64,000 nt of DNA from Haplodiscus bocki. Taxonomy: Eukaryota. The stretch covers positions 2,728,001 through 2,792,000 of the forward strand of contig OZ296652.1 in assembly GCA_965655095.1 (NCBI GenBank), in the 5' to 3' direction. The position numbers and the translations under genes were made by a program. Shown one piece after another: positions 35,218 to 63,547 of the stretch. The notes beneath the pieces were generated by a model. The model searched no databases. It saw only the letters and a program-made list of their open reading frames with translations, and had not been told where the DNA came from. Each line of letters starts with the position of its first letter. Position 1 is the stretch's first letter.

Positions 35218-38200
35218 GTATCCAGGGTTGTTAAGTTTGTTTTTAATCAGTTTTGAACATAATAATTAACAAGCCGAGAATGGCCAGAGTCAGCGCTACC
35301 CGTGTGGCTCAAAATACTGATACGACGGAGTTGACTTTATTGTTTGAAAAATGTTTTTTGGTATATTCTTGGTATAAAATATTACTATGCTGGGATTCAA
35401 ACTTTCTAGCTATCCTTTTATTAGAGTTTATGAGGGGTTACCACGAAAAAAGCTTGGATCGAACGTCCAAAATTTTTTTCGGAAATAGGTAGATTTCCGG
35501 TGTAAAATGTAAAAATAAATAACCTATTCCGGGGTTCAAACCCGCGACTTGTGGTTCCGGAGCCCATTTCTCCTACCCACTGCGCCGTATAAAATGCAAA
35601 AAAAGTCGAGTATATGCAAACGGGCGGTTTTTGGTGGAAATTTGATTTTTGGACAACCTGGAAGCAGTTTGAAGTGTTTGTGCTGGGGAATTGGAGATGG
35701 TAGTGGAAAGTTTCAAAAGCCACTCCATCCCAAGCTAGAAAATTTACTCAAAACTTAAGGCAAGTCTCCTACTCCAATTTTGTGACTGCTGCCTTCCTAC
35801 ATTTCAACAAATTCGCCTCAGGCCTGAGTTCGAAAGGAAGGTCTTTTTCTATCTGGTGAATCAAGTGAAGAAATCTGATATTGATAAAGAGCTAAATTAG
35901 GATTAGTAATAATATCATTTTTTGGCCTACAGTTATTAATAAAATCAGAAAATCAAAATATCAGAGAAAGTGAAAGTATAGAAAATTCAAAACAGACACA
36001 ATCAATTAAGGTATAAATGAAAACGGTAAAATATAAAAACGGAAAAGGGTTGTAGGTTTTACAAGAACAAGGACATCTAAGTAAGTCATAAGTTAATCTT
36101 ACGGCTCAAAATTCATTTTGTCAACTAAGGACAGCAAGTTGTCAGACCTTAGTTGACAGCAAGTTGTCAGACCTTAGTTGACAGCAAGTTGTCAACTAAG
36201 GACATTAAATTGGCAACTACAGACAGTTTTTTAAAAACGGCAAATTGCCAAAATTGTTTTAGGCCCGCAATATTGCAAAGGCTGTGTGCATTAAGCAAAG
36301 AATGTAGTAGAAAAGGTAGAACTATTCAGATCCGCAAATTGCCAAGACGAGTTCTATCTCTTTATCAATTATCAGACCCGCAAAAATGCTAAGGTTGTCG
36401 AGTCCGCTTTTGGCTAGGACTTTTCTCAAATTGAGAAATAGATTCAGTTCCCTCAATCAAGAGGAACGGCAAAATGCCAAAATACAAGTTTTAGGTTTAA
36501 AAAAGTTACAGAAAAGTGTTAGTTGAACTTAGCTACTTTACTGTTTTTCTGAAATAAGGAATAAACTTAGTTACTGAAACTTTTAGTCTACATCAGAAGA
36601 AAAGTTAAAGTTAACTTAGAAAAGAAAAATTATTCAAAAGAAAAGTTAGAGATGAAAACAAAAATGATAAAAATGTTCGACTTACAATTACTGCTCAATA
36701 TTTCTGCACCGGGTTCGATCCGTCTTTGCTGGAAAATGGCTGGCGTGAACTCACGTATCTTCTGACTTCTGATTTGAGCTGGATGAGATCGCGCCAAAAC
36801 GGGGAATTTCGTCCGCTATATATACTAAATTTTATTCACTCGGGAGCCAATCAAAATGCGAACAGCACTGGATTGGCTCTGAGTATGACGTCAACTCATG
36901 TGACCAGTCACGTGACTTTGGAGTGTCAATATTCATATTGTTAAAACACACATGACGTCAAATGACGTCAGATGACGTTATTATTTCGGGAGTTGATTCT
37001 ATTGTTTGGTGAACGACGTTGTTGTTCATATAAGGTAAATCAGGGAGTAACGGCGGCTGTAGTTTTGAAGTGGTTGTATACAAATGTGACACGTGATCAA
37101 ACTTGTGCATCGGCAGTCAAAATAGCGGATATAAAATATTATTGTTTAAATTTTTAGTTTTTCAAAGTTTTCCTTTTCTTTTTTTTCTTTGCTGTAGGTC
37201 AAACTACATCTCATCCGGGGTTCAGGATTGTTGGAGATGAAACCGGGGTTCACGGTAAGTCAGGAATCTTTACCTAGATATGGACAATATCTCTCATTTT
37301 TAGATTCTTACTTGTCTTGAACATTTCTTCATGCTGAAGTAGAATAAAAAACCACAACTTGAGTTTTGTTGCAAGGGCATTGGTCGTGAGAAGCAGGGTG
37401 TAGTTTTGTCGTCTGTCTTTAAGACATTCATCCAGATTAAACCAGAATTGACTTGTCTGAAAATACTGATTTGAATTGATCCTTTAAAGGACCAAGAGGG
37501 GATATCGTCAAGGGCTTCGGCGATCAAAGATATAATAATGGACATTGATCTGCCATGTGCTGAGCCACATCCATAAAGGAAGGCGCTAATAAACAAACTA
37601 AAGCCTTATAATTTGCTGAGGAAAGCTGTGGTACAAAAATTGCGTGCCAAGTTGGGATAGGTAATAATTGTGTTTTTTGCTTCTTCAAATTGTTTGGCGT
37701 TGATGAAGATGACCAAAAAGTTTTCGAGTTTCCAAATATTTTTGAAGAGTTTCCAATCGCGGGGTTGCTCTCCTGTTTCCAACTTTTGTAGTCGAGATTC
37801 AAAATTGTCTATCTTTTTAGAAAGTTTCTTATTCTAGTAATCTATGTTTAGGCTGAATGGCCCATTGTATTTAGGTTTGGGTTTTTCTAATTTGAGTTGG
37901 GCTAAAGTCTTTTCAACATCTTCAAGTTTTACAGCAAGGGCAGTGCTGAGAATTTGTTCAATTTCAAATTTTTTTCAATGAGGTTCGGGAAATGTTTAGT
38001 AAAATGCTGAAATTGGTCTTCTAAGTAGGACGGATTTTCGTTGAAATTTGAGCGATGGGTTTTCGAGGGTAAATTTCTGTCGTTTAGGATCCCAAAACAC
38101 ACTCCTCAACTAATTATTGTTTTTTTTGCAATTTTGTAGGTTAGATTAAATTGAAGCTGAGGATTTTTAGTAATGATATAATTTGGCGTAGCTTCCTCGC

Positions 38201-41200
38201 TTTTCCTCTGTTTCTGAAAGAGTTGTCATGAGGAGATAGTTGACTTTGGCTTTTTGGCTCTATCGCTCAGGGCATTTGGAAGTTTATCGGAGGGGGTGGT
38301 AATTAGTTTCGCTGGTTCGTGAATTAGAGTGGTTTTGCTAGGAGAGTTTTTTGGGTCTTCAAAGATTAGTTCTGGAAGCTGTAGAAGGTCGACTTCTGTG
38401 ATATTGTTTTTGGAGTAGAGAATCTAGATCTGAAAAAGGATAACTATCCTGGGTCATATTGCTGAAATCAAAAGCGTATCAGTTACTTTGAACAGGTGAA
38501 ACGGCGTTGGGAGCAATATTGGGTAGTGTTTGATTAGAGGAATAAATGTGGTTGGTAGATTCTTGCGTTTCCACAACCATCGGTGTTGAAGACTCAATGG
38601 TTTTGGCTGGTGAATAGAATGAGTTTATTTTTGAACCCATAAAAAGCTGATAGTAAAACTTTTCCGAAGCTGACGAATTTTCCCGTTATCAGATGTATTT
38701 CTAAGGTATTCATCATAGTGACGATTAAATCAAAGATCAGTTCTATAAAAAGGAAAATAGCGAACCAGATTCCGCATTTTTCAAGCCAGTAAACAACTGA
38801 TCCAAAAGTCCGGACAAATTTGTTCTCGAAATTTCGGAGAAAACATGTTATCTACGAAGAAGTCTGTTCGAGGTGAATAGTATGTATATCCACCTGGTCC
38901 CTTCTTTGCGTTTGGGGGAACAATCAAGTTTCGTGTGAGTTTTTGCAAGGCGTTCCGTGATGCTGAACTCATTAGTATAGCGTCCCAAAATTCGCTGAGA
39001 TGTCTTTTCGTATACATTGCAGCTTTAACTCATTGGGGTAACTTTTGCGTTGTGAAGAGAGAAACGTCTTTAGGGGCGAATACTGCAGGTCTGTCTTTGT
39101 GAGCAATTTCTGGTGTTAGGGATTACCATGAGTCCTTCTGAACCATAGCCACTCTCCGGGAAGAAACTTGGGTTTGAACTTTTTTCTGGCATAGCATCGG
39201 GTAGAGTTTGTCTAGTAATGGATCTACGAATTGTATTCTTCTTTTATAAACGATGGCATTTTGTCATTACATTGCTTGAGAGTGTGTAGGGCTGATCTCA
39301 TTTGTGGGCGGGAATGTGTAGGGCTGATCTCATTTGTGGGCGGGAAGAGAGCCATGCTAAGCTTCCATTTTTCTCTAAGAACATTGATCTGTTTCCACTA
39401 AGCATGTATCCCGCAAGGCCGGGGTTTTTCGAGCGAAAGCATCAAGATAGTGAAGATTTGGATTCTTTTGTTCACATTGGTTCTTGAATAGATTCAGTTC
39501 TGATTCCTGTAGTGCTCTAGTACTCTCCAAGATAAGGCAGTCGAGATCTGTTTCTTGTAATTCCTAGTCCATATTCAACCATATATTGATGTATGGGTCA
39601 GCAGATTTGGGTTGAGGACTGTAGACGTAGAGGTTTCCAGGTTTCGGGAAGAATGCATTATTCTGATACTGTAAAAGGTGAGGACCTAGTTCGTTAATTT
39701 TCCGTCCTGTTTTCATATCAAATCACCCATAGTGGATTGCAACAAACAGTGAGGCGTATGTAGTTGGATAAACTTCTGTTGGTTTGTTACAAAGATGTTG
39801 AGGGTTATTTTTTACCTCAAATAAATATGTGCTCTCCAGTGAGTTTTGGCTAACTTTGTAAAAGTGGTTGTCGTTTTTTTAGCATGTGCTCATAGTCTTC
39901 TTTTGAAACTGATATTATGCAATTTTCAGGAGCTTTCCACGTAAAAACATAAAGGTCTAATGATGTACTTTCCCATCAAAGTGTGTGCAGGTCGCAAGGT
40001 AGTAGCTGATCATTTCGGTTGAATACTTTGCCATATTTATTTCTCATCTTCAGAGTGATTATTAGTATAGACTTTCCAAACTAGCTTTGGTTATCCATTT
40101 GTAAACTTTGCATTCTTTAACGTAGTCTCCATTTACATCTCCTTTCTATTTCTGATGAGTTTGTTTACTGACTTTTTCAAAAGTAAGTTTGTGGTCAAAA
40201 AGTGTGAGTGATCTCCCATCGGAGGTTTGCTTGCATTGTTCAAGATTTAGGTCTACATCACTTGTTATCTGTGGCGGTTCAATATCCATACTTCTATGGT
40301 CATGCGTCCCGCAAAAAAATTTGTTTGTTTGAGGCTTTATTCTACAAATTGTGGCGTTAATTTCAGTACGGAAGTATTTCGTGTACATAGTCAATTTTAC
40401 GTCGTTCATTTCAAAAACTAGGGGTGCCATATCACAAGGTTTAACTTGGTTTAGTGAATAAAGATTGTTTTGAGTCATTTCGCAGCAGTCAAATTGGGAG
40501 ATTTGTACTGAAGGTGCAGAATTGTCATCTTTGGGTCCGTATTTGTGGCACAGAGAAATGTTCAGCACAAAAGAAATAAAACACATTTTATGAAAGCCAT
40601 CTTTTCACTATTCATTATCACATTTGAAAACGGCACTTCGATCAGACCTAAAACAGAAAGATGTTTTCAATGAAGGAAGGTAGCAATTTGCTAACCAAAT
40701 GATGAAGAAGTTTTGTGCCGTAGCTCTTGGCTATACAGAGTTTCAGGCATATAGCAACTGAAAAGATTTGACAACGTTAGTCCAGGTGAAAACAATGCTC
40801 AAATTTGGCAACATTGGTCAGGGAAAAAAACTTTGGCAATTCAAGCCAGAAAAGGAAACTTTGACACCTTAGGCCGGCGAAAAAACCTTCGGCAACTTAG
40901 GCCGGGAAAGAAACATTGGCACCTGTAGGCCAGAAAAAGGAACTTTGGAAACTGTAGGCCAGAAAAAGGCACTTCGGCACCTGTAGGCCAGAAATTAAAC
41001 ATTGGCTTCTGTAGGCCTGAAAGGAAACATTGGCATCTGTGGGCCAGAAAAAAAAACATCGGCACTTTTGGGCCGGAATACATTAGTACTTTCAGACTGG
41101 AACAACTTGTTAAAAAAAGGTTAGAGCTGAAAAGTAAGATTGGTTGTAATTGCAAAAGGAAATTCGTTACAGTTGAAAAAGAAAACGTTAGTCAGAAGTT

Positions 41201-44200
41201 TGAAAAAACAGTCAAGTAACTGTTTTTGTACCTGAAAAGAAAAGCTTAGCAAACATCACTGGCACCACCAGTGGCAAAAAGACAAAAAACTAGCACCAAT
41301 AGTTATAAAAGAACAAATGCTGGCACCACCAGCTATAGAAATAGAATTCTGGCACCACCAGAGAAGGCGACTTTCAGCTGGATTGGTTCTGTACAATCTT
41401 TTTGGTTTCTTGTATATAGTAGCCTGTAGGGGTTCCCATATGAAATTCTGCAGTGTCCATTAGTTCTCGTAGAGCATGAATATCCTGTTGAGTAAGTTGC
41501 GGATCTGGATACTTTTTATAGACAGTCAAAGTGATAAAAAGTTTCCAGAGGCAAGTGTTTCTCTTTTAATATTGAAGATATTTGGATGAGCGGGATTGTC
41601 AATAGGGTAGATACTGGCTGTTATTGAAAATGGGTGCTGAAACGACCATCCAGGTTCTAATATCATAAAATCATGACTTGCTCTCCACGGTACAGTTATA
41701 GTCGACGGGCAATTGAGCTCTATTTCCTAAATTTTTTTCCCTCGTAAATATCTTCGTCTGGATCAAACATCAACGTTGTCAAACATATCTGTTGATTTCG
41801 GCTAAGTGTAAATTGGATGGAAAAACATGTGGTAGTGTAAAAACTGTTTCAAGAAATGGGTTTTATAGGCTTCCTTCTACGATGGTAAATGTCTTATTTT
41901 CTTTCGTCTGAGGATTTTGTGGGTAGGGAAATGCATTGTAATTCTTTTTTCTCAAATTGGATTTATTCCACGCTCTGATTGTTGATTTTGAAGTACACTA
42001 AGACAGTTGTTTTCTTTTAGTTGACTTCGTTATCCAAAAATGTTGTCTCCTATGAACGAAGTTGTTGCTCCATGGGCAGTTATTACCCGCTGGTGAGATT
42101 TCTTGTGTTTTCTTTTCTGTTAGGCATGCAACTGGAAGGAGTATGAAGGTTGAAGTAACATCAAAATGCATGTCATTCCAAAACTTGTTTTTGGATTCTG
42201 TGATGTTCTTGATCGAACACGACCATATCTTAAACATAATCGAACACGACCATATCTTCGTTTTCGCTCACGCCAATTCTTTGTAAAGGTTAATTCTAGA
42301 ATATGGATTGACGCTGGATCAAGGGGAGTTAGCAAGTTAGCACAGTAGACGTCTAAAACCAAAGTTTGTTTTTAAAAAGCGGTAGGACAGTTGAGGTACA
42401 TAACAATACGTGGCTAGAACAATAGAAGAATATAACAATAGGTGATTTGAACAATAGAAGGGTAGAACATGAGAACGATAGAACAAAAGAAGGATAGAAC
42501 AATAAAAGGACAGAAACTAGAAGGGTAGAACAATAGAAGAATAGATCGATAGAAGGATAGATCAATGGAAGGATAGAACGATAGAAGGGTAGAACAATAG
42601 GTGGGTAGAACAGAAGTTTGTTTATCAGAGGAGGATAGAAAGGGTTTTGGTGAAACAGTAGACTTGTTGAATAAAGGAATGTTGGAAAAAACATTGGAGA
42701 ACAAAGAACGTATAAAACGACGGCTTATTGTTTTGTCGTCGGTTGTTGTATTGTGTAGCAAATGGTATTTTTTCTTCAAGGTCTTTTTTCCTCTGAGCTA
42801 GTCAGTCTGATCGAAATTTTCTCTGCTGTAAGTTTGTCGCCTCCGTAGTGTTGCCTACGAACTTGCTTCTGCTACTGAGTGGACCCACTTCCGTTGAAGA
42901 AAAAGTTTTGGAAAAGATATTGTGGGCTCGGGAATTAAATAGGATAGAAAAAGAAGAAAAATGTCGGAGAAACTTTTGAACGAGCATGGGGGTGCCTGAA
43001 AATGAAATCTTAGATTTTCTTATGTTTCAGTTCTTTCCTCAAATTTCAATTGATCTTTACGTCTTCGATGGCTGAAGGAACACCAGTGGGAAAAGTTTCG
43101 GGTCATTTCTTGGGTGCCCGGGATATAGCGAGGCTGCTTTTTTGGTGAAAGAACTAAGAATGTCTCTGATTACAAGGAATGATATGGTCCAAATCAGTTT
43201 CTCACAATCATTTGTGACCATTCTGCAGGTCGGTGCCGGGGACAATGTAAGACTTATTGCTCCTTCTTGAGTTTCCTTTACTAATTGATGTTTCTTGATT
43301 TGCAGTAATATTGCTCTGTTTCAGTGGTTATCCGCTTTAGTCTCCTCTTGTGGGGACTTCCTCTGGCATAAGTTGGAAGCGATCCAGGCTGGTTATGAAT
43401 CGCTAGGTTTCATTGGGAAACGGCACATCATCCAGCGCTTGGAGGAGACTTTTGAGTATCGGGAGACTTTCCGGCGGAAACTGGATGACATTTAGAAATT
43501 AAATATGAGTAATATCTATATTTTAATTAGCTTTAATAACTTGTTTAATCCCTTGTTTCCTTTTCTCTCTAGTTTTCTAAGTGAGCTATTAGGATCAATT
43601 TTTTCATACCTTTTTTGACATTCGTCGCAAAACGGGCTCTTTTGCCTATATCAGTACCACTGTTTAACTTTGATGGGGTATTTGGATTACTGGGCTACGA
43701 ATCACACATTGGATCCCGTAGCTCAGGTGATTCTCTAGGCTTAGGTGTCATGGGCAAAGTTTGTGAATTCAATTTGGGTGAGAGAAACAATGTTCATTTT
43801 TCATAAGGGCTTGAGTTTTGACTTCTAGGCGAATGATGTATCGAACTTGCAGGGGATTGTATTCCGGAATCTGCTTTAGGTGAAGATTCATTATCATCCT
43901 TTTGTTGTCTATCTGGGTTGTCTTGGATGGGCGTTATAACAAAAAGCCTTACGTCAAGGAAATGTTTTTTTTCTACCAGAGTTGTACTGTTCATTTTGTG
44001 AGTTGACGAAATGGCTATGGAAATCGGAGTCTCTAAATATGAGACCATAGTTAGTAATAAACGGAGGGAGTTGTACTTCTTTCGCAAAACATTCGATTAG
44101 GGGATTTCTTTGCATAGTTTTGACATCGTCGGGATTGGCATCTTCTAGCATTCCGTATGTTGTAATCGCGATTTGTCGTGTTTCTGTGAACGATCCGACT

Positions 44201-47200
44201 CGTAGTTGTTGCAATTTTCGAGATTTCGAGAGAACCTCTGCGTGGTTTTGTAGGAAGATTTTTTGTCCTATGCTGATAGGCCGTCCGAGTTTGTATCGGC
44301 TTCGGTTTTCGTGTGCTTTTGACGCTATCTGACGACACCTTTGATAGGTTAACGAATAAATTTGTTTGAATTCGTTTTCTCATTTTAGTAACTCGTCGGA
44401 GAGTTGTGGACGAAGTAAAGTGAAATGTTCGGTAGGTTGTTTTCACTATGTGTATGAGATTGGAGTCCATGGCAAAATTCGGATTTGCACTGTTTATTCT
44501 TATCTCGTGATAGTCCGAGTTTAAGTGTCATTGGGTTCTGCGGTTTTGCTCCGAAGACAATGTCGTAAAGTGTCTGACCAGTTGTGTAATCTACACTTGT
44601 GTTATGTGCAAATGCAAATTTGAATGTGAGTTTTGACGAATTGTATCCAGATTCATTAATGAAATTTCGCGAGTTTTTGGCAAGGTGCTTATTTTGCACT
44701 TCAACTTTGTCATTTCTCCATGGTGAGTAGGTAGTACTAGGAGCAAGGGTTATTCCAAACATTTTGGTCCCGTTGCTGAGGTCACTATTCATGAAGGCTG
44801 AATCATTATCATAAACCATTTTTTGAGGTTTACCACACGATGTGATCCATTTTTCTAATGCGTTGAAGGTGGTCTGAGCTCTTGTGTCGCTGACTGGATA
44901 AGCTCCAAGGAATCGGAAAAAGGCGTCCAGTACGACAAGACAATGGGTATGTGAATCACTGCTAGAAGTGGTCTTTTGTGGTCAATATGTATCGTCTTGA
45001 ACGATGCGGTTTCCTATTCTTTCCATTGCTCTAACGGTGCCTCATGTCAGTGATGTCTTTTCCTTTTTTTACTTTGGAATTGAGTGCAATCTTATATTAG
45101 GTATACTATCCATTTGTATCGTCCAGGCCAAAACAAAAATTGTCTGATGTTTTCGAAAGCTATGAATGTTCCTCGATCTCCGCTATGGCAATTAGTATGA
45201 GCTGAAGAATAGAGTGGTGGGAAAAGTGATAAGGGAACACAAATCTTCTATTCGGTTTTGCAGGTATCCTGAATTTTTTCTCTGTAGCTCAGGAGGTTGG
45301 TGTCATGATTGATTAAAAATTGTTCAAACTTGTTGTAGCATGATAACAAGGCTTTTGGTTGGTTAACTTCGGGCTTCTTCTGAAGTCTCGTATCGGAGGT
45401 TCCGATCCATTTGCGAACAACTTGTAGTACAGGATCATTGATTTGTTCTTCCAATGGTGTTTGTATGTCTAAGTCAGCTTCGCGAGCAAAATCACTAAGT
45501 TTCTGAATCATGTCGGTTGTGTCTACATGAGGAATTAACTCGAAAGGTATGGGTTTCTTGAGAATCGGTTTATCCTTTGTTTTCGTACGGAATGATTCAT
45601 GGTCTACAAAGTGGGACGAAAATCAGGGTCCTGATTTTCGATGTTGAGTTCTGCTACTTCAGTTGCGTCTTCTGTGAGTCTTTCGTTGTACTGTTCGATA
45701 TTACTGTAGTCTCGTTCGTAGAGACTAGAGGTGCTTGATGACGGGTTAATATTGGAGCAAAGCTGTTTGTATTGGTTTAAGTTTAAAGCAATCGGTGATG
45801 TCTGGCATGTTAGTTTGGGTTTCTTTCTCTTCGAAGTAGTCTTCAATATGATGCTCATTTCCATCGTTTTTAAGTCTACTAGTCTTTCGTGTATTACCTT
45901 GTTGGCAGCTGATGGGGTAGAAATCGTTATATTATGCATTTTGTTCATCTTCATTTTTGATGGTGTAATGTATTTTGTGACCGTCCTGATCATAGAATGA
46001 TATATCGTGCGGAATCTGTTTAAGTTGAAGTTGGAGTCGATTTGCCTCTGAAAGTGTCGAGGTTGGGCTGAGAAAATTAGGAAATGCGAGATTGGATCCA
46101 GGTGTTCAAATGATTTTGAATTTGTGAAATTTGGTGATCATGACTCAATATTTGAAAAATCGGTGAAATATTTGTCCTTGCCGTGCCGAAACGGAAAGAA
46201 TGGGTTTGTGAACACAATAGAGATATATGGGAAAACCTGAGCAAGAATTATAGTGTTTATACGTTCGTAGTGTAGATAGAATCCCACATAAATCACGTTG
46301 GAGGGTCGACACCTTTTGCTCCGCCTTATCAAGAACTCTAGAATTGATTGAGATTTCTGTTTCTCCTTCGAGAACTTGTTGTACTAGTATGCAAGCGTTC
46401 ACGATGTTAGGGGAGTCAACGTGTATATGGAAGACGTACTCAGTTGAAGGTACTGCCATTATAGTGTCTTCGGAAATTCTGGTGTTGATTTCCTTAGGAT
46501 GTTCTTCAAATTGATCGGTCCATTTTTAAGGAACAGTAACTTATATAGTGTTCGTATGTTTGCAGGGCAGATACTATCCCCCATAATTCACGGTGAAGGG
46601 TTGACATTTTCTGTTTGGCGTTATCAAAAACTCTAGAATTGAATGAAACTATTCTTTTTCCCTCGGGGAACTGTTGGACTAGTATGCAACCGGTTCCGAC
46701 ATTAGATGAGTCGACGTGTATGTGGAAAGGGTACTCGGTTGAAGGCACTGCCAGTATAGTGTCTTCGGAAATTCTAGTTTTGATTTCTTTGAAAAGTTCT
46801 TCATGCTGATCGGTCCATTTGAAAGGGGTAATATCTTTAATCAGTTCGTGGAAGGGTTGACTATCGACGTGGAGGTTCTTGATATAGCAGCTGTAGAAGC
46901 CTTGGCATCCGAGGACTTTCATTACATTTCTTTCGCTCTCAGGAGAATTCAGACTCTGCAGGTCTTTCACTCTTTTTGCAAGGGGTTGAATCCATTTTTC
47001 GGTAACAAGTTGGCCGAGGAGTTTACTTTCCTCAAGAAAGTTTCAGTTTTGTCTGGTGCTGCTTTCAGGCCTCTTTTGTGAGGGAGTTGATGATACTCGT
47101 GAAAAATTGTGAACAATGCTGCTTTTGTTTGGGATTGGAGTAGACTGTCATCAAGTTAAGATATAGCTTTCTTCTTCCTGATGAGTGGTTCGGAGTTATT

Positions 47201-50200
47201 AGCCATCATCCGGCTGAACCACTGAGGTAGACCACAGGGTCCCTAAAATCCAATTTGGTAGGTGTTTTGCTTTCCTCCTCTCACAAAAATTGTCAAATTT
47301 TGTGTTTCAGGAGATAGGGGAACTTGATGATAAGCGCATGAAAGGTCGCTTGCAGTAAAGTTTTTTCCATTATTTCGGGTCCTTACCATTTGGACTGGCT
47401 CTAGGGGGCACGCGTAGTTAGTCAAGTTGGTGATTGAGTTTAGGTAACTAGCATCGATGACCAGTTTAACATAATTTGCTCTTGGGAGTAGTATGATTGG
47501 GTTAACGAAAAGTGATCCCAGCTCATCATCATCTCTCATTTCTCGGACATTATCAGAGTCTTCCAGTTGGCCAAGGAGTTTCTGTAGTTTGTCTTTAAGA
47601 TGAGGAGGGCATTTACTGGGTCGTTGTTTCCTGAGTTCTGAATTGGGTTTTAATATGATATGAAGTTTCTGCTTTGTCTGGCCGATGTCAAAGTTGTGCT
47701 GAGTGTAGGCGTCTCTAGACTCTATGACCATGTCGATGAGGGTAACTAGTTCTTCATCTTCTAAGTCAGTATATCAGAAAACGATTTTTTAATGAGATTC
47801 TTGATATTTTGCTGTGGATATTGGAGATAGTGAAATATCAGATCTGCATTTAGTTGTTCTGATCTCAAAGTAGGAAATTGTTCGGTGCAAGGTGGTTGAC
47901 AGGATTTTGAATTCCTTTCAAAAACGGTCTCTGGTTCATCTTTTCATTCAATCTATTCGTTTGTTTATTTTTCTACTTCATGTTCTGCATAGTGTTTGTC
48001 GTTTGGTGGAGGGTATATTTTTAAACAGTTTGTTTCTTTTGTGATTATCTGAATCTAGATTCCAGAGTATGTGAAAGTATCTTGTATGAGTTTAAGAACA
48101 GCAGTCCGTCGAAGTTTCTTTAGACCGCAGCAATTTTTGGGTATTATAATTTTGGTGACATTGTTTAGTAAAGCATGTTTTCTCATATTTTCAAGTGAGC
48201 TTCGGAGATTATCTAATGTTGATTTTTCATGAAATTTTGATTTAGCTACAAGATTGTAGATAAAGTTGTTGGATTGCGGGTCCCAGTAGGGGAGAGCTGA
48301 ACCTACGATTGTTTTGGCTTTTCGACAGTCTTCTTGAAGTCCGTTCACGACCAATTGTTTCTGCAAATCTTTTGCTCATCTTCGCTTCGGCGGTTAATAC
48401 AATGGGCGATAGCGGAGTGAGCTTGAAAGATTGTTTGGTCGTTCCCATTCGAAATCTGTATTTTGTCTTGCATGTCAGCTTCGCATGGGTCAATGAAATG
48501 GTTCAGAAAGCATTCGTTATACTGGTATCTCCGTAGGAATTGAATTAACCATTTTGACACAGTCTTTTATCTGGTAATTGGGTCTGTCATAGTCCGAGAT
48601 ATAGTGATGAATAACCAATAACGCCTTTGTTCAGAGTGATCTGGTGGTTTCTGTTGTTTTCCATCAAGATGGGTAAGTAAGTTTCAGACTGATTAAATAG
48701 TAAGTTAACAAAATCTAGTCCTGATTTGACTGACTGTCGATGAGGAACGAAGGTAGTTACTGCTGAGAAGTTTTGCGATTTATCTTCTGACGAAAAATTC
48801 TAAACTCTCGAAGTTTCGGTGTCGATATGAATTTGACGAGGTATTCTAATAGTGTGGATCTTTTAGACAAAAGGATAGGGTTTTGTTGAACACAAATTTC
48901 AGTAACAAATAGCGTTCGCCGTGTTTTTGAATTCTATTGATGGTATTTCGAAATGTAATTTTGAAACGTATTGTCCGCAAAATTCAACCCCGAGAAGATT
49001 CGGGGTCTGTTTTTCTGAAAACCATATTCGTGGTCGAAACTGATGTTCTCCATCTGAATCAAAACTGACGGATAGAGTAGTCTGCCCAGTCATCGGTACA
49101 ATTTCGCCGGTGTAGGTTTTTGTCCTATGTTTACTTCTAGCAACAGTGATCGGTTGTCTAAACTGAGCAATTTCAAGGAAGGTTCTGTAGTTTAAGATGG
49201 AGCAAGCTGCCCCGGTGTCGAGCATGAACTTCATGTCGAGTCCACTATCTTTTTCGCTATCTCCGGTGGAAAAGTAGAGGGCGTTCATATGGAAGCGTGA
49301 ATTGAAGTTACTTTCTTCATCTGATCTCGGAGACTTCAGAAGTTTAGAGGAAAGAAACCTGATAAAGTGTTCACTACATCTTGACCCTGATATTCAATAA
49401 ATTGATCTGAGTTGGTTGTAGGTAGATTTTTGCTCTATGGGAAGTTTCTGTTTTACTGAGCATCGGAAGCTTCAGGATAAGCGTTGAAGTCATAATGAGT
49501 TTGTTGACAGTTATTTGGTCCATTAGTCCAAGAGCTGCTTGGTCTGTCTTGACGATACTGTCTATCTGGGTTCCGGTTTCTATCTGGATTGAGGCCATTT
49601 TAATTAGGGTGTTTCTGATTTTCTGATTCCCGTATCTGGGTTGCTGATTGAAAGTTCTGAGACTCAAAACTCGGTCCCCTTCTCATATTACAATCATGAG
49701 CGAAAACTGTGCAACAATCCTGTTTGTTCCGTGTCTGCTCTCTTTCGATCTCATCATCATGAGCTATTGTTCTGCAGTACATGAGAGTGTGTACATTTCT
49801 TCGGCAAAATGAGCCAATCTTGTCATATTCTGTCTTGACTTGTTATTACTTTTGTAGGTCAGGAAATAGACTGATTGACTTGGTGTACTTGTTGTTCTTT
49901 GAATAATGCAGTGCGGTCTTTAGTCTGTTGCTCCAGAGAGTGGAGTTTGGTATTCTGATCGGCAGTGGCATTAGGTACTAGTTCTGAGCTGATTGTATAG
50001 ATCACATCTTAGGAAGTGATATGAGTTTGGAAGACATCCCACGTTGCATTTGGGTGCTTTGTCAAATATTTATGAGTTTTTCTGTTTAGTCCAAATGGTT
50101 TGAGTCCTCTGATTGTGATTTTGGTGTATTTGGCATTTCTTTGGTTTTGTTGATTATCTGTTTCGGCCTGGGTTCCGTTTGGGTCTAAAAGTCATTCTTT

Positions 50201-53200
50201 GTCAACGGCACTTTTGACTCTGTGATAAAAGTTTTTGATTAGTTCCTCATTGCTTCGCGCACAATTTTCTGCTGTGAGTTGGTGTCTGTGTTTATCTCGG
50301 TCAAATGAAAATCTGTCAATGAAAGCGGTTCTGATTTGATCCCAAGTTGCTGCATCGTTTATTGAGTCGGCATACCATTCTGCTGTTGGTCCTCGAAAAA
50401 GTGAATAAAATAGGGCTTTTTTGTCTTTTTTATGGATAAATAACGTGCTCTTTCAGCAAAATCGGGTGGTCGTGATCAAAGCGAGAAATTGATTTTGTTT
50501 TCAAGTGTGAGTGGAAAAAATTTTGCGTCCTGATCAGAATCTTTACCGGAAAATTTGTCTAAGGCCAAGTCTGGGAATGATACTGTGTTTCCTGCCATTG
50601 TCAGTAGTCTCTTGTTTCGTGGGTGTCTGTCTTTCGGCGGGTTCTTTACTCAGTTTAAAGTTAAATATGAAGTTAAAACATCCACTTACTAATCTAGGTT
50701 TGTCTTATTATGAACCTTCAAGTCTCAACCAGTTTGTGGAGTATGTTAGTACCACCTCGTGAAGTGCTGTCTAGAGACTGAGGTAGTTCTGGTTTGTTGT
50801 AGATGCCTCACTAGTTGGTTCTTGGCCCAGTTTGTGAAGTAGTGTCACTGGTTTGTCACATCTGCTTTGAGCGTGCCTCACTGTTTTGTTGATCGCATCA
50901 GTTGGCTTAATTGTCTCGCTGACCAGTCTGTATTTTGTGTAGAAGCATCGCTGACGAGTTTGTAGATTGCTAAATTTGTTTCTCGCTGACCAGTTTGTAG
51001 ACTGCTAGTTTTGAGCTTCTCTGGTCGCGCCAGTTTGTGAAGTGCTTGTGCTGGGGGGTTGAATATAATAGTGGAAAGTTTCAAAAGCCACTCTATCCCA
51101 AGCTAGAAAACTTACTTAAAACATAAGACAAGTCTCCTACTCCAGTTTTGTGACTGCTGCCTTCCTACATTTCAACAAATTGGCCTCAGGCCTGAGTTCG
51201 AAAGTAAGGTCTTTTTCTATCTGGTGAATCAAGTGAAGAAATCTGATATTGATAAAAAGCTAAATTAGGATTAGTAATAATATCAACTTTTGGCCTACAG
51301 TTATTAATAAAATCAGAAAATCAAAATATCAGAAAAACTGAAAGTATAGAAATTTCTAAACAGACACAATCAGTTAAGGTATAAATAAAAACGGTAAAAT
51401 ATAAAAACGGAAAAGGGTTGTAGGTTTTACAAAAACAAGGACATCTAAGTAAGTCATAAGTTAATCTTAAGGCTCAAAAATCATATTGTCAACTAAGGAC
51501 AGCAAGTTGTGAACTAAGGACATTAAATTGGCAACTACAGACAGTTTTTTAAAAACGGCAAATTGCCAAATATGTTTTAGGCCCGCAATATTGCAAAGGC
51601 TGTGTGCATTAAGCAAAGAATGTAGTAGAAAAGGTAGAACTATTCAGATCCGCAAATTGCCAAGACGAGTTCTATCTCTTTATCAATTATCAGACCCGCA
51701 AGACTGCTAAGCTTCTCGAGTCCGCTTTTGGCTAGGACTTTTCTCAAATTGAGAAATAGTTTCAGTTCCCTCAATCAAGAGGAACGGCAAAATGCCAAAA
51801 TACAAGTTTTAGGTTAAAAAAAGTTAGAGAAAAGTGTTAGTTGAACTTAGCTACTTTACTGTTTCTCTGAATTAAGGAATAAACTTAGTTACTGAAACTT
51901 TTAGTTTACATCAGAAGAAAAGTTAAAGTTAAATTATAAAAAAATTATTCAAGAGAAAATTTAGAGTTGAAAACAAAAATGATAAAAATGTTCGACTTAC
52001 AATTACTGCTCAACAGTACTGCACCGGGTTCGATCCGTCTTTGCTAAAAAATGGCTGGAGTGAACTCACGTATCTTCTGACTTCTGATTTGAGCTGGATG
52101 AGATCGCGCCAAAACGGGGAATTTCGTCCGCTATATATACTAAATTTTATTCACTCGGGAGCCAATCAAAATGCGAATAGCACTGGATTGGCTCTGAGTA
52201 TGACGTCGTGTCACGTGACCAGTCACGTGACTTTGGAGTGTCAATATTCATTTTGTTGAAACATACATGACGTCAAATGACGTCAGATGAGGTTATTATC
52301 TCGGGAGTTGTTTCTATTGTTGTCCATATAAGGTAAATGAGGGAGTAACGGCGGCTGTAGTTTTCAAGTGGTTGTAAACAAATGTGGGACGTGATCGAAC
52401 TTGTGCATCGGCAGTCAAATTGGTGAATATAAATTATAGTTTAAAGTTTTCCTTTTTCAAAGTTTTTTTCTTTTTTTCTCTTTGCTGTATGTCAAACCCG
52501 ACAGCAGTGGTACAAATCGTATCATCAAGATCGTCAATTTGATCAACTCCGTTGAAATTGGATCGGTTCGAAGTTAGTGTGCTGTCTGTCGAAGAGAACA
52601 AGTAACTGTGATACTAGGAACTTTTTCTGAAGCGCTGACTGAAAACAAGTTTTACACCCCAATGCAGACCTCAATCGTTGAAGATTTAGTGCAATGAAAG
52701 GGCTACGAATTATTTTTGAACTTCGACTTTTACGGAATCTTTAAATCTGAATTTTAGGAAAAATTGATATCATCGGAAACTTGAAAGTGAAATTGCTCAA
52801 CATTTTTTCAAACCAAACATCTTTTCTTGATTTTCTTTGATAAACAGTATTATCAAACACTTGCTCATGTTCGCGAAAATCGCTGATAACGTTTAAAAAT
52901 CAATGATTAACAATAATCGTTCTCAATTCTTTGAACTTTGTTGTTTTCTTCAATCGGAAACCTCTTACACTTGATTTTCTGATTAAATATTTGATCAGTC
53001 TTCATAGTTTCCTTATTTATACCTTCATCTTCAACCCGAAAATTTTTCAAAAGGTTAGCATTGAATTAACTAATTGTCTCTTTGCTCGCATTTTTCTTTC
53101 AAAAAATAACCTTTGCATTCAAATCATAAACCTTTTTATCATGGAAACAGAAGATGAAAAATAATTGTTATAGATACGACGCTGACTTGTTTTCACGCAA

Positions 53201-62200: not shown

Positions 62201-63547
62201 TAAAGAGGGAGGCAAAATTTTCGAAACTCATTTCTGATTTAGTTCTGCCCCAAGCAATCGTTAACTTTTTGTTCGAGGAACTTCTCCTTGGCAATGAACT
62301 TCTTCTAGGGAAACGAATGGTTGTCCCTATAAGCACCCCCGTACGCAGAAGTCCTTCAAATGGTTATCGCAAAGTTTTTCCGAAGTCCTAGCCGCCTTGG
62401 GCAGCTATGCTCTGTTTGTTTTTTCTCAGCTTCGTTACGTAACTCTCGTTAGAAAACGCCATGTCTTGATGATTGATGGTGATCAGCATGGCGCGTCATG
62501 AACAATTGATGAAACATGAAAGTTGACTAAAGGTAGGAAAAATCGACGCATTTTTTTCGTTTGAACTTCTGTAATTTTTTTCAGACGTTTAGCAGAAGTT
62601 TGGTTAGACGAATACAAGAAATTTTTCTACGAAATAGCTCCTGATGCCAAGCAGTTAGACATGGGCAGCATCGAAGAACAACTAGCCAATAAAAAACGAC
62701 TAAACTGCAAGCCCTTCAAATACTTCATAACGGACGTGGTCAAAGATATGTATCCCCCGACGTTGCTTTCTTATACTAAAGGGGGGCTATCTCCAACAAC
62801 ACAGTCAGAGATATGCCTGGACACTTACGCCCATAAATCCGGAGATATCAAGCTTTATGGGTGCCACCATATGGGCGGAAATCAGGCGATTTCTTTGACC
62901 GAAAAGGGTGAACTCAGAATCAACATTTTGACTTGTCTCGAATCAGTGTCTAAAGATACAGGTGTTTATATGTCTGATTGCAACGGCAATGGAAATCAAA
63001 TATGGTCTCACAAGGCTCCAAATTCTAGGTAGGTTGTGCACTTCAAGCAAAAACTGTCGATTCAGTTGCAAATCAACTCGCTCATACGATTGAGACTTGA
63101 AATTAAAGCCAGTTCAATTGATGGTGTCTTCACATTGTTATTCTTTATATGAGTTATTTTCTAGCGATTTTGAAAAGGTCTCATCAACTTTTTAAACTGA
63201 GCTCCGTGCGTTTGATCGTTTTTTGCAGAGAAGCTATCTCTCAATTTGTTTGGTTTTGACCTATGCATTTTTTCAAGTTTTGACAAGCAAAATTTTTGAT
63301 ACATTACAAGTTTAATTGAAACTTCCGGTTAAAATCAATTGGATCAATTTACTTTAATCAAAACATATTGATCGTCATTGTATCAGTGTAGTAAACTGCT
63401 CTGCTCAACTGTGTTTGCAGGATATACCACGAAGCAACAGGTCAATGCATGACTTACGAAAAAGGCAAAGTAAGAATCGCGGATTGTGACGAAAGCAACG
63501 AGAGTCAAAAATGGAAGTTTGATACATACTTCGGAACACCAGAATAA
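34990..63547 (+). CDS. GALNT: Polypeptide N-acetylgalactosaminyltransferase (GT27, GALNT family), 3' five exons; 5' exons not found in window
   Basis: Exons 34990-35217, 53907-54114, 54541-54720, 62585-63028 and 63421-63547 join in frame at GT-AG junctions. The product has RHGLIRAK, the DxH metal-binding motif (FLDSHCE), [35 protein letters not shown] and a ricin-B lectin domain. The paralogue number cannot be assigned. Confidence 0.95.
35525..35592 (-). mobile_element. Degenerate tRNA-derived sequence (SINE head or tRNA pseudogene)
   Basis: On the - strand there is an A-box-like CGGCGCAGTGG, an anticodon-arm-like TGGG-CTCCGGA-ACCA and a B-box-like GGGTTTGAACCCC at tRNA spacing. The acceptor stem is not formed. 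Confidence 0.45.
35668..37208 (-). repeat. 3' LTR (1541 bp)
   Basis: Direct repeat of 51036-52503. On the + strand it begins TTTGAAGTG (TGTGAAGTG in the other copy) and ends ...gtcaaactACA. It carries an extra 2x25-bp insertion at ~36130-36185. Confidence 0.93.
37250..38150 (-). pseudogene. Coiled-coil + TRAF-C/MATH domain ORF (RING-less TRAF-like), just inside the 3' LTR
   Basis: One frame from 37830 to 37300 reads [20 protein letters not shown]...IWKLENF...[61 protein letters not shown]...TPCFSRP...SSCGFLFY. After a frameshift it continues [13 protein letters not shown]. This matches the TRAF MATH pattern IWKI..F...FSPAFY...YGYK.C...Y.NG.G...G.HLS......G..D..L.WPF...V...L.DQ...SFQRP....SG...F. 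The 5' boundary is approximate. Confidence 0.8.
38400..40600 (-). pseudogene. env: Envelope glycoprotein, chuvirus/Jingchuvirales-like (class III fusion type), decayed
   Basis: A signal-peptide-like start is followed by QFDC...[11 protein letters not shown]...ATICRIK...FFCGTHDH.S, then LPC...FTWKAPENC and [12 protein letters not shown]...FVDP.TR. A C-terminal transmembrane segment [19 protein letters not shown] lies at ~38750-38805. Confidence 0.72.
39283..39346. repeat. 31-32-bp direct duplication inside env
   Basis: tgtgtagggctgatctcatttgtgggcgggaa occurs twice in tandem. Confidence 0.85.
40816..41078. repeat. Minisatellite, ~9 copies of a 28-29-bp unit (GGCCAGAAAAAGGAAC.TTGGCACCTGTA), upstream of env
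   Basis: GGCC anchors at 40872, 40900, 40928, 40957, 40986, 41014, 41042 and 41071. A second ~30-bp CTGGCACCACCA repeat lies at ~41259-41362. Confidence 0.9.
41400..43491 (-). pseudogene. Accessory ORF region of unknown function between integrase and env
   Basis: An ATG at 43491 is in frame with ORF fragment 43057-43245. Further coding-like fragments run to ~41400 with a low-complexity repeat inside. No family was recognised. Confidence 0.4.
42411..42612. repeat. Degenerate 15-16-bp purine-rich tandem repeat (GGGTAGAACAATAGAA)
   Basis: Repeated tagaacaatagaagg units are directly visible. Confidence 0.85.
44040..45300 (-). pseudogene. pol: Integrase (zinc-binding remnant, DDE core, GPY/F module)
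   Basis: The core reads VYDNDSAF...[16 protein letters not shown]...[26 protein letters not shown]...TTY is GPY/F-like, and an H..H..C..C remnant lies at ~45070-45210. Confidence 0.88.
46100..46800 (-). pseudogene. pol: RNase H (pol) with a diverged ~295-bp internal tandem duplication
   Basis: Copy A reads [18 protein letters not shown]...[10 protein letters not shown] and copy B reads [18 protein letters not shown]...[10 protein letters not shown]...YCVHKP. The anchor tgatcggtccattt occurs at 46807 and 46512. Confidence 0.88.
46800..47731 (-). pseudogene. pol: Reverse transcriptase (pol), Ty3/Gypsy type
   Basis: [10 protein letters not shown] and [11 protein letters not shown] are present, followed by GF*GPCGLP. 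The YxDD motif reads AIS*LDDSL, with the Tyr codon mutated to stop. The connection region reads [11 protein letters not shown]. Confidence 0.92.
48040..48465 (-). pseudogene. TARG1/OARD1 (Poa1p/DarG-like) macrodomain inside pol, between protease and RT
   Basis: Joining three frames gives [22 protein letters not shown] / [14 protein letters not shown] / VNGLQE...[64 protein letters not shown]. This parallels the TARG1 pattern SLAHCIS.D.RM..GIA...YIYYLITK.....KPTYENL..SL..MK.H...N.V..L.MPRIGCGLD.L.W..V...I..VF. Confidence 0.85.
48899..49288 (-). pseudogene. pol: Retropepsin aspartic protease (pol)
   Basis: [12 protein letters not shown] catalytic motif and downstream NLLGVEF (ILGxDF-like). Confidence 0.9.
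49320..50600 (-). pseudogene. gag: gag (retrotransposon capsid), decayed
   Basis: Manual translation gives ...[52 protein letters not shown]...[12 protein letters not shown], the L.G.A..W...TW..I...F..RF gag pattern. Boundaries are approximate. Confidence 0.75.
51018..51032 (-). promoter_or_regulatory. Primer-binding site (PBS)
   Basis: On the - strand TGGCGCGACCAGAGA begins 3 nt after the 5' LTR end (…CTTCACA aac TGG…). TGG is complementary to the tRNA CCA end. The priming tRNA was not identified. Confidence 0.75.
51036..52503 (-). repeat. 5' LTR (1468 bp)
   Basis: On the + strand it reads TGTGAAGTG...gtcaaacccgACA and is followed by the GCAG target-site duplication. Confidence 0.93.
52130..52290 (-). 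promoter_or_regulatory. LTR U3 promoter: CRE (TGACGTCA) repeats, E-box palindromes, CCAAT boxes and TATA (mirrored at ~36815-36980 in the 3' LTR)
   Basis: TGACGTCA occurs at 52268 and 52278 (36886, 36953 and 36963 in the 3' LTR). GTCACGTGAC, AGCCAATCA/ATTGGCT and then TATATATAG follow in promoter order on the - strand. Confidence 0.6.
53907..54114 (+). CDS. GALNT: GALNT exon
   Basis: Polypyrimidine tract then ttccag|. Translation (G)[68 protein letters not shown]. Donor AG|gtcaga. Not in the ORF track. Confidence 0.93.
54541..54720 (+). CDS. GALNT: GALNT exon (Gal/GalNAc-T motif)
   Basis: Acceptor gacag|. Translation (R)[59 protein letters not shown]. Donor AG|gttaga. Confidence 0.95.
55493..55691. 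mobile_element. MITE-like element (~200 bp) in a GALNT intron
   Basis: Terminal inverted repeats ATCCCGGGTC.AA / TT.GACCCGGGAT, sub-terminal inverted ttttccggtata / tataccggaaaa, and internal gttaacggcg repeats. Confidence 0.65.
56270..56500. repeat. Degenerate interspaced repeat (~25-bp AGACAT....ATGTCTGTT.AGCAC motif, ~5 copies, variable 24-34-bp spacers)
   Basis: Motif copies lie near 56272, 56331, 56381, 56430 and 56479. Confidence 0.5.
62585..63028 (+). CDS. GALNT: GALNT exon (end of catalytic domain, linker, start of ricin lectin domain)
   Basis: Acceptor tttttcag|. Translation (R)[15 protein letters not shown]...LNCKPFKYF...CLDT...[11 protein letters not shown]...CLE...NQIW. Donor AG|gtaggt. 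Confidence 0.95.
63421..63547 (+). CDS. GALNT: GALNT terminal coding exon (lectin gamma repeat)
   Basis: Acceptor tttgcag|. Translation (R)[41 protein letters not shown], containing the QxW motif. Confidence 0.92.

What the first reader, a model, noticed from the sequence alone, without database searches (positions are those of the whole stretch)
48040..48465. TARG1/DarG-like macrodomain embedded in Pol between protease and reverse transcriptase
Seen: the AHCI...M...FA, IYNLVAK (catalytic Lys position of TARG1 retained) and PKNCCGL (PRIGCGL-like) motifs lie in line with pol. Established: TARG1 and bacterial DarG remove ADP-ribose from acidic residues and from thymidine-ADP-ribosylated DNA. 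Macrodomains are known in some retroelements, but a PR-Macro-RT placement is unusual to my knowledge. Inference: it would be packaged with RT and might strip host ADP-ribose marks from nascent cDNA or particle proteins.
Basis: partly seen in the sequence, partly recalled or inferred. Interest (0 to 1): 0.75.

Follow-up and report, generated by a model that had tools for sequence, protein, structure and literature searches.

The report
ADP-ribose eraser inside retrotransposon polymerase
A decayed jumping gene here belongs to a family that carries an enzyme domain resembling the human ADP-ribose remover TARG1 next to its reverse transcriptase, which hints that these elements undo a host chemical defence.

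Summary
Window 48037-48470 (minus strand) encodes a TARG1-type macrodomain (human TARG1 E=6e-10; intact relatives E~1e-23 to 1e-25; DarG only E=0.04-0.09) inside pol of a decayed ~17 kb Ty3/Gypsy element with an env-like remnant. This copy is dead: two frameshifts and a stop break the domain, and the Asp125 position is lost. Relatives carry protease, an unnamed ~135-aa domain, macrodomain and RT in one ORF. Among RT-selected relatives, the 22 macro-bearing rows form one clade (97/95) nested among 18 macro-less rows: one capture, then kept. The catalytic Lys is kept in 13 of 13 multi-member clusters. The wider active site is intact in 8 and eroded in 5 (three lineages). TARG1-like domains also sit in unrelated LTR Pols at other positions, including one more protease-proximal case, so the placement is not unique. 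Best reading: a Pol-borne ADP-ribose hydrolase that erases host marks on element RNA, cDNA or proteins. Activity, substrate and host writer are untested. Macro domains in fish retroviruses are already reported. New variant of a known kind.

The parts
48037..48470 (-). TARG1-type macrodomain in pol; broken in this copy by frameshifts near 48395 and 48348 and a stop at 48055-48057
48241..48261 (-). IYNLVAK, loop 2, with the position of TARG1 catalytic Lys84 kept
   Evidence: numbering by alignment to TARG1 and PMC6397177
48118..48141 (-). PKNCCGLK, loop 3 (Px[IL]GxGxD in TARG1); eroded in this copy, Asp125 position lost
48899..49393 (-). aspartic protease (DTG)
   Evidence: Pfam E~0.01; 59% to P0213 residues 1-209
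48520..48900 (-). unnamed ~135-aa domain between protease and macrodomain, also present in macro-less relatives; approximate limits
   Evidence: no Pfam family; Atlas best score 0.87 to unnamed clusters
47785..48036 (-). acidic linker between macrodomain and RT
46973..47779 (-). reverse transcriptase, with stops
   Evidence: 73% to P0040 residues 410-678
46145..47042 (-). RT connection/RNase H, with a 295-nt tandem duplication (46249-46837)
43600..45620 (-). integrase region, frameshifted
   Evidence: (rve E=1.4e-8 on 44388-44981)
49732..50598 (-). gag remnants
   Evidence: Retrotrans_gag E=0.001; matches to P0235 residues 1-270
40146..40604 (-). N-terminal remnant of an env-like fusion glycoprotein gene
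   Evidence: Monjiviricetes_fusion E=3e-7
51031..52500 (-). 5' LTR, followed by a TGG-starting primer-binding-site-like sequence near 51030
35665..37210 (-). 3' LTR (89.8% identical to the 5' LTR over 1543 columns: 79 mismatches, 79 gap columns)

Best explanation
An ancestor of one Ty3/Gypsy lineage captured a TARG1-type macrodomain into pol, between a protease-adjacent domain and RT, and its descendants kept it (shown by tree and architecture). As part of Pol it is made and packaged with RT (inferred from general Ty3/Gypsy biology). In most sublineages it retains the TARG1 two-step machinery, with Lys attacking the ADP-ribose C1'' and Asp resolving the adduct (residues shown; activity inferred). 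Its most likely job is counter-defence: removing ADP-ribose that host ADP-ribosyltransferases put on the element's genomic RNA bases, nascent single-stranded cDNA or acidic residues of Gag/Pol, so that reverse transcription can proceed (inferred). The benefit is conditional, since three sublineages let the active site erode while keeping the domain. The window copy itself is a pseudogene.
For: TARG1 is the best PDB match of intact relatives (E=1.7e-23 for P0047; 2.6e-25 for P0043). Single ORFs span DTG-macro-YIDD in 3 of 64 proteins; 12 span DTG and macro; 15 span macro and the YxDD column. Of 120 RT-selected proteins, 35 have the domain, always upstream of RT. On an RT-RNase H tree of 46 rows, the 22 macro-bearing rows are one clade (97/95) inside 18 macro-less rows. 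Lys84 is kept in 13 of 13 multi-member clusters; Thr83, Ser35, Gly123 and Asp125 are also kept together in 8 of 13. Across 8 lineages at 35% mean domain identity, five polar active-site columns average 0.64 identity versus 0.29 for 63 polar columns (p=0.002), and Lys84 is one of 6 invariant columns. The position of TARG1 Arg86, part of its RNA-binding surface, is Lys/Arg in 11 of 13. TARG1 reverses thymidine-ADPr on ssDNA (PMC8501950, passages) and base-linked uracil-N3/guanine-N1 ADPr on RNA (bioRxiv 10.64898/2026.03.31.715305, abstract and section 7). Unrelated LTR Pols and a picorna-like polyprotein carry the same domain type.
Against: No activity was measured, and no host writer enzyme or modified element nucleic acid was identified. 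Five of 13 multi-member clusters have eroded sites: P0225 and P0227 carry Glu at the Gly123 position, the change that abolishes ADP-ribose binding in TARG1 (PMC5928194, passages); P0213 has Glu at Gly121; P0243 has lost Asp125; P0319 has lost Thr83. Only 18 of 32 RT-selected full domains match the strict published pattern. Close macro-less sisters (66-72% RT-RNase H identity, several with many members) do without it. The domain's position varies between elements, so RT adjacency need not be meaningful. Selection was judged from proteins only, without dN/dS. The conservation test partly reflects structural constraint.
Confidence: 0.5

Rival explanations
1. The domain works as a binder, not an eraser. 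It binds RNA or poly(ADP-ribose) through its basic surface, helping packaging or priming, or tethering the integration complex to PARylated chromatin, and catalysis is secondary.
For: The domain is kept at full length in all 22 tree rows, even where the GxGxD loop is eroded. TARG1 binds RNA independently of its ADP-ribose pocket, and G123E still binds RNA (PMC5928194, passages). Other elements place it after integrase, once right after a chromodomain (P0065; P0198, P0210).
Against: The nucleophile Lys is invariant, and Asp125 is kept in 10 of 13 clusters. Net charge of the segments is only -1 to +5.
Confidence: 0.25
2. It is a tolerated passenger: a captured domain kept mainly as a folded spacer in Pol and now decaying lineage by lineage, with no present benefit.
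For: Three independent erosions of the active site in multi-member clusters. Macro identity between subfamilies (39-47%) is no higher than that of the flanking linker (41-52%). Macro-less sisters are abundant.
Against: No deletion of the domain was seen within the clade, or in 44 proteins that span both flanks (these were selected by the macrodomain). Polar active-site residues are preferentially conserved (p=0.002). The same domain type recurs in several unrelated LTR Pols.
Confidence: 0.13
3. It is an active hydrolase aimed at host targets, for example dampening PARP signalling at integration sites or ADP-ribosylation-dependent silencing, and is released from Pol by the protease.
For: ADP-ribosylation contributes to retrotransposon silencing in mammals (SIRT6-KAP1, review PMC4695847, passages). 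Free placement within Pol fits a cleaved, diffusible module.
Against: Pol products are normally made in small amounts and confined to the particle (general knowledge). No cleavage sites or nuclear targeting were tested.
Confidence: 0.12

Closest known systems
TARG1/OARD1/C6orf130 (ALC1-type clade, TARG1-like subclass)
   Same: Best PDB match over the whole domain. HC-S, TK and PxIGCGLD motifs with the Lys84 and Asp125 positions are kept in most relatives.
   Different: TARG1 is a stand-alone cellular protein; here the domain is embedded in an LTR-retrotransposon Pol. Several sublineages and the window copy have eroded sites. Activity untested.
DarG antitoxin macrodomain
   Same: Same fold class and equivalent catalytic Lys (K80/K84, PMC8501950).
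   Different: Sequence match only E=0.04-0.09 (5m3i, 5m31). No DarT-like partner was recognised among the element ORFs scanned.
Macro domain genes in teleost epsilon-like endogenous retroviruses
   Same: A retroelement carrying a captured macrodomain (one sentence in review PMC4977317 citing Basta et al. 2009; passages).
   Different: Described there as additional ORFs in vertebrate retroviruses. Subtype and position could not be checked because the primary paper is not held. Here it is an in-frame Pol domain of a Ty3/Gypsy clade.
RNA-virus macrodomains (coronavirus, alphavirus)
   Same: Polyprotein-embedded domains that counteract host ADP-ribosylation (review PMC7729036, abstract listing and passages).
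   Different: Those are MacroD-type (recalled); this is TARG1-type with a Lys/Asp mechanism, in a reverse-transcribing element.
Other extra enzyme domains captured by Ty3/Gypsy Pol (for example the m6A demethylase domain in orchid elements, PMC9289625)
   Same: A host modification-eraser fixed in a Ty3/Gypsy lineage (search listing only).
   Different: Different enzyme and modification.

Membership tests
TARG1-like macrodomain | Sequence similarity to TARG1 over the domain, above other macrodomain classes | tested here: met
   E=1.7e-23 and 2.6e-25 to TARG1 versus 0.04-0.09 to DarG; Atlas top cluster OARD1-like at 0.95
TARG1-like macrodomain | Pattern TKx(30,35)Px[IL]GxGxD (PMC6397177) in relatives | tested here: met
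   18 of 32 RT-selected full domains and 42 of 64 macro-selected proteins, some truncated; met by P0040, P0219, P0234, P0260, P0309
TARG1-like macrodomain | Same pattern in the window copy | tested here: not met
   Lys kept, but Thr83, Gly121 and Asp125 positions differ; domain frameshifted
TARG1-like macrodomain | Catalytic Lys84 and Asp125 kept across all subfamilies | tested here: inconclusive
   Lys 13 of 13, Asp 10 of 13, Gly123 11 of 13 multi-member clusters
TARG1-like macrodomain | Macrodomain fold by structure | tested here: inconclusive
   AlphaFold model mean pLDDT 42 from a 14-row alignment; not searched further
TARG1-like macrodomain | ADP-ribose hydrolase activity through a lysyl intermediate | not testable with these tools
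   needs biochemistry
DarG (DarTG antitoxin) | Closest similarity to DarG and a linked DarT toxin | tested here: not met
   no ADP-ribosyltransferase family among the 24 window ORF pieces scanned
Ty3/Gypsy LTR retrotransposon | LTRs, gag, and pol order PR-RT-RNase H-IN | tested here: met
   best solved RT match is Ty3 (E=7e-19)
Ty3/Gypsy LTR retrotransposon | Assignment to a named clade | not tested
   no named references in the tree; hits carry no informative names
env-carrying retroelement | Fusion glycoprotein ORF between pol and the 3' LTR | tested here: inconclusive
   one 152-aa remnant matches Monjiviricetes_fusion at E=3e-7; 5 further pieces downstream gave no meaningful Pfam match; DNA context of relatives not available

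The most novel reading that the evidence does not exclude
Ty3/Gypsy elements have repeatedly captured TARG1-type erasers because animals restrict retroelements by ADP-ribosylating bases of their genomic RNA or nascent cDNA. This would be a eukaryotic counterpart of DarTG-type nucleic-acid defence, with the Pol-borne domain as the packaged counter-defence and the lineage-specific erosions marking lapses or shifts in that arms race.
Probability: 0.2. Interest if true: 0.85.

Novelty: new variant of a known kind. Interest (0 to 1): 0.52.

Why it matters
TARG1 is the hydrolase reported to remove base-linked ADP-ribose from DNA thymidine and RNA uracil/guanine, and the natural source and purpose of such marks in animals are open. 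A retrotransposon clade that fixed this domain in Pol and kept its nucleophile, plus independent occurrences in other LTR Pols, points to ADP-ribosylation as a possible anti-transposon defence. It also supplies natural intact and eroded variants for direct assay. Pfam scores the domain mostly below its cut-off here, so routine annotation will tend to miss it.

Tried and rejected
Fold prediction from a 14-row alignment gave pLDDT 42, so no fold search was run. Pfam missed the window pieces (0 families for both) and scored relatives mostly below cut-off. A dUTPase-like identity for the domain between protease and macrodomain (my recollection, by eye) got no support from Pfam or the Atlas, so it is left unnamed. 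A DarG origin was rejected. 'Placement unique' was rejected (P0180). One versus several origins of all LTR-element macrodomains is unresolved: the 11 other-LTR rows need 7 changes on a 48-row tree, but the AU test does not reject one clade (p=0.09). Four of those 11 labels (P0161, P0193, P0205, P0176) were assigned by eye; Pfam did not confirm them, and BLAST of the flanks of three of them found nothing. Names and source organisms of the relatives could not be looked up, and viral and metagenome contigs were closed, so the host species, copy numbers, DNA context and dN/dS stayed unchecked. 'Members' are sequences in a 90% cluster, not genomic copy numbers. Ten literature searches listed no paper describing a TARG1-like domain in Ty3/Gypsy Pol. 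The library omits most subscription papers and does not cover Repbase or CDD; Sharifi 2013 and Basta 2009 were not held; no supplements were read, and they could bear on novelty. Rfam and tRNA scans of the window were empty.

Full report
Setting. The finding lies in a decayed LTR element of about 17 kb on the minus strand. Two ~1.5 kb LTRs (35665-37204 and 51031-52497) align at 89.8% including gaps. Between them are gag remnants, protease (48899-49393), RT, a partly duplicated RNase H, integrase, and a 152-aa remnant matching a Monjiviricetes-type fusion glycoprotein (E=3e-7). The domain order and the Ty3 RT match (E=7e-19) make it Ty3/Gypsy. The host is a eukaryote, probably an animal: an exon-like piece at 62565-63029 has a ricin-B lectin domain and looks like a GalNAc-transferase (recalled). 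The species was not identified.

Observation. The unbroken 106-aa piece matches only human TARG1 in the PDB (5 sequences, E~6e-10) and far exceeds 200 shuffles (63.9 versus at most 24.3 bits). By alignment to TARG1 and the residue roles in PMC6397177 (passages), this copy keeps the Lys84 position but not Thr83, Gly121 or Asp125. It is a pseudogene and fails the published pattern.

In-frame fusion. Two searches with the macrodomain returned 38 of 110 and 32 of 247 candidates. Of the 64 family proteins, 12 span the protease DTG column and the macrodomain, 15 span the macrodomain and the YxDD column, and 3 span all three in one ORF (P0047, P0054, P0056). Intact relatives match TARG1 at E=1.7e-23 and 2.6e-25 and DarG at only 0.04-0.09. 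The order is protease, unnamed ~135-aa domain, macrodomain, acidic linker, RT. In this macro-selected set Lys84 is kept in 58 of 61 and Asp125 in 60 of 61, but the set is biased by how it was found.

Unbiased test. A search with the RT-RNase H region of P0040 gave 168 hits among 4806 candidates, 120 listed. Thirty-five of the 120 carry the macrodomain (32 whole, 3 starting inside it), always upstream of RT, including near-full Pols P0213 and P0215 (168 and 617 cluster members). I built an RT-RNase H tree from 45 of the 120 plus P0198, leaving out 10 further macro-bearing rows, fragments starting too late to score, and most near-identical distant Pols. The 22 macro-bearing rows form one clade (bootstrap 97, SH-aLRT 95; one clade in 95% of 200 bootstrap trees) nested among 18 macro-less rows. 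The nearest macro-less rows have the protease-adjacent domain joined to RT by a short linker. For five distant macro-less rows no protease was detected, and absence rests on 270-370 residues upstream of RT. The simplest reading is one capture, then retention. The window's RT piece is closest to P0018, P0063 and P0040 (78-80%).

Active site across subfamilies. Among the 13 macro-bearing clusters with at least 20 members, Lys84 is kept in 13, Gly123 and Ser35 in 11, and Thr83 and Asp125 in 10; all five together in 8. Across 8 lineages at 35% mean identity, five polar active-site columns average 0.64 identity against 0.29 for 63 polar columns (p=0.002), and Lys84 is one of 6 invariant columns. 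Against this, five clusters in three lineages are eroded. P0225 and P0227 have Glu at Gly123, the binding-dead change in TARG1 (PMC5928194, passages). P0213 has Glu at Gly121, P0243 lacks Asp125 and P0319 lacks Thr83. Only 18 of 32 match the strict pattern, although some misses are single changes away from the catalytic residues. Whole-domain identity between subfamilies (39-47%) is like that of the linker (41-52%) and below RT (60-75%).

Wider distribution. A profile search of 1.84 billion representatives found 2669 proteins at E<=0.001 and listed 150. I scanned the 40 listed hits longer than 250 aa. Six carry LTR-Pol domains: macrodomain after integrase (P0198, P0210, P0137), after RNase H (P0104, P0197), or between protease and RT (P0180). 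P0065 has integrase, chromodomain, macrodomain and a rhabdovirus-like glycoprotein piece. P0180 and P0198 are close relatives (RT start 62% identical, macrodomains sisters at 99) with different placements, so the domain can move within Pol. Others are a picorna-like polyprotein (P0132), NADAR fusions and cellular-looking fusions such as DNA ligase III-BRCT. The macrodomain tree scatters the LTR-borne domains but does not reject one origin (AU p=0.09).

Mechanism. Shown: capture, in-frame position, retention and preferential conservation of catalytic residues. From established biology: Pol domains travel in the particle with RNA and RT. From papers: TARG1 uses Lys84 and Asp125, and reverses thymidine-ADPr on ssDNA (PMC8501950, passages) and uracil-N3/guanine-N1 ADPr on RNA (bioRxiv 10.64898/2026.03.31.715305, abstract and section 7). 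The position of Arg86 in its RNA-binding surface is basic in 11 of 13 clusters. Inferred: the domain erases host ADP-ribose marks from element RNA, cDNA or proteins (0.5). Rivals are a non-catalytic RNA or PAR binder (0.25), a decaying passenger (0.13) and a hydrolase aimed at host targets (0.12). Variable placement argues that being in Pol matters more than adjacency to RT.

Known versus new. Macro domains in fish endogenous retroviruses are reported (one sentence in PMC4977317 citing Basta 2009; primary paper not held). TARG1 homologues occur sporadically in invertebrates and in viral genomes (PMC4245714, passages). Ten searches listed no paper on TARG1-like domains in Ty3/Gypsy Pol. An in-text search for 'macro' in the 2026 eLife survey of env-carrying Ty3/gypsy elements found 0 occurrences in its main text. 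Coverage is limited and database annotations may already note such domains.

Verdict. Real and reproducible at family level, dead in this copy, function plausible but untested. New variant of a known kind; interest 0.52.

Noticed in passing
window 1-32744: Tandem array of about 14 copies of a 2359-bp unit at 99.6-100% identity, with one 1943-bp unit. No Rfam or tRNA hit; three unit ORFs gave no Pfam family. One piece (2372-2629) looks Cys-rich and EGF-like by eye.
   Followed up: partly
window 46249-46837: 295-nt tandem duplication within the RNase H region, copies 77% identical, giving two RNase H Pfam hits.
   Followed up: partly
window 37300-40604, minus strand: Remnant env-like gene; its N-terminal piece matches Monjiviricetes_fusion, and later pieces suggest a membrane-spanning stretch by eye.
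   Followed up: partly
window 48520-48900, minus strand: Unnamed ~135-aa domain after the protease, shared by macro-bearing and macro-less relatives; no Pfam family, Atlas neighbours unnamed eukaryotic clusters.
   Followed up: partly
window 62565-63029, plus strand: Host exon-like ORF with a ricin-B lectin domain (E=1e-12), resembling a polypeptide GalNAc-transferase C-terminus (recalled).
   Followed up: partly
window 40814-41078 and 42380-42628: Two degenerate short-period repeat tracts (about 28-29 nt and 16 nt) between pol and env inside the element.
   Followed up: no
proteins P0132, P0149, P0185: TARG1-like macrodomain at the N-terminus of a 3401-aa picorna-like polyprotein, and in NADAR fusions, one with a helicase.
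   Followed up: no
proteins P0106, P0144, P0157, P0093, P0102, P0140: TARG1-like macrodomain fused ahead of a DNA ligase III-type BRCT domain, in P0106 after the ligase catalytic domain.
   Followed up: no
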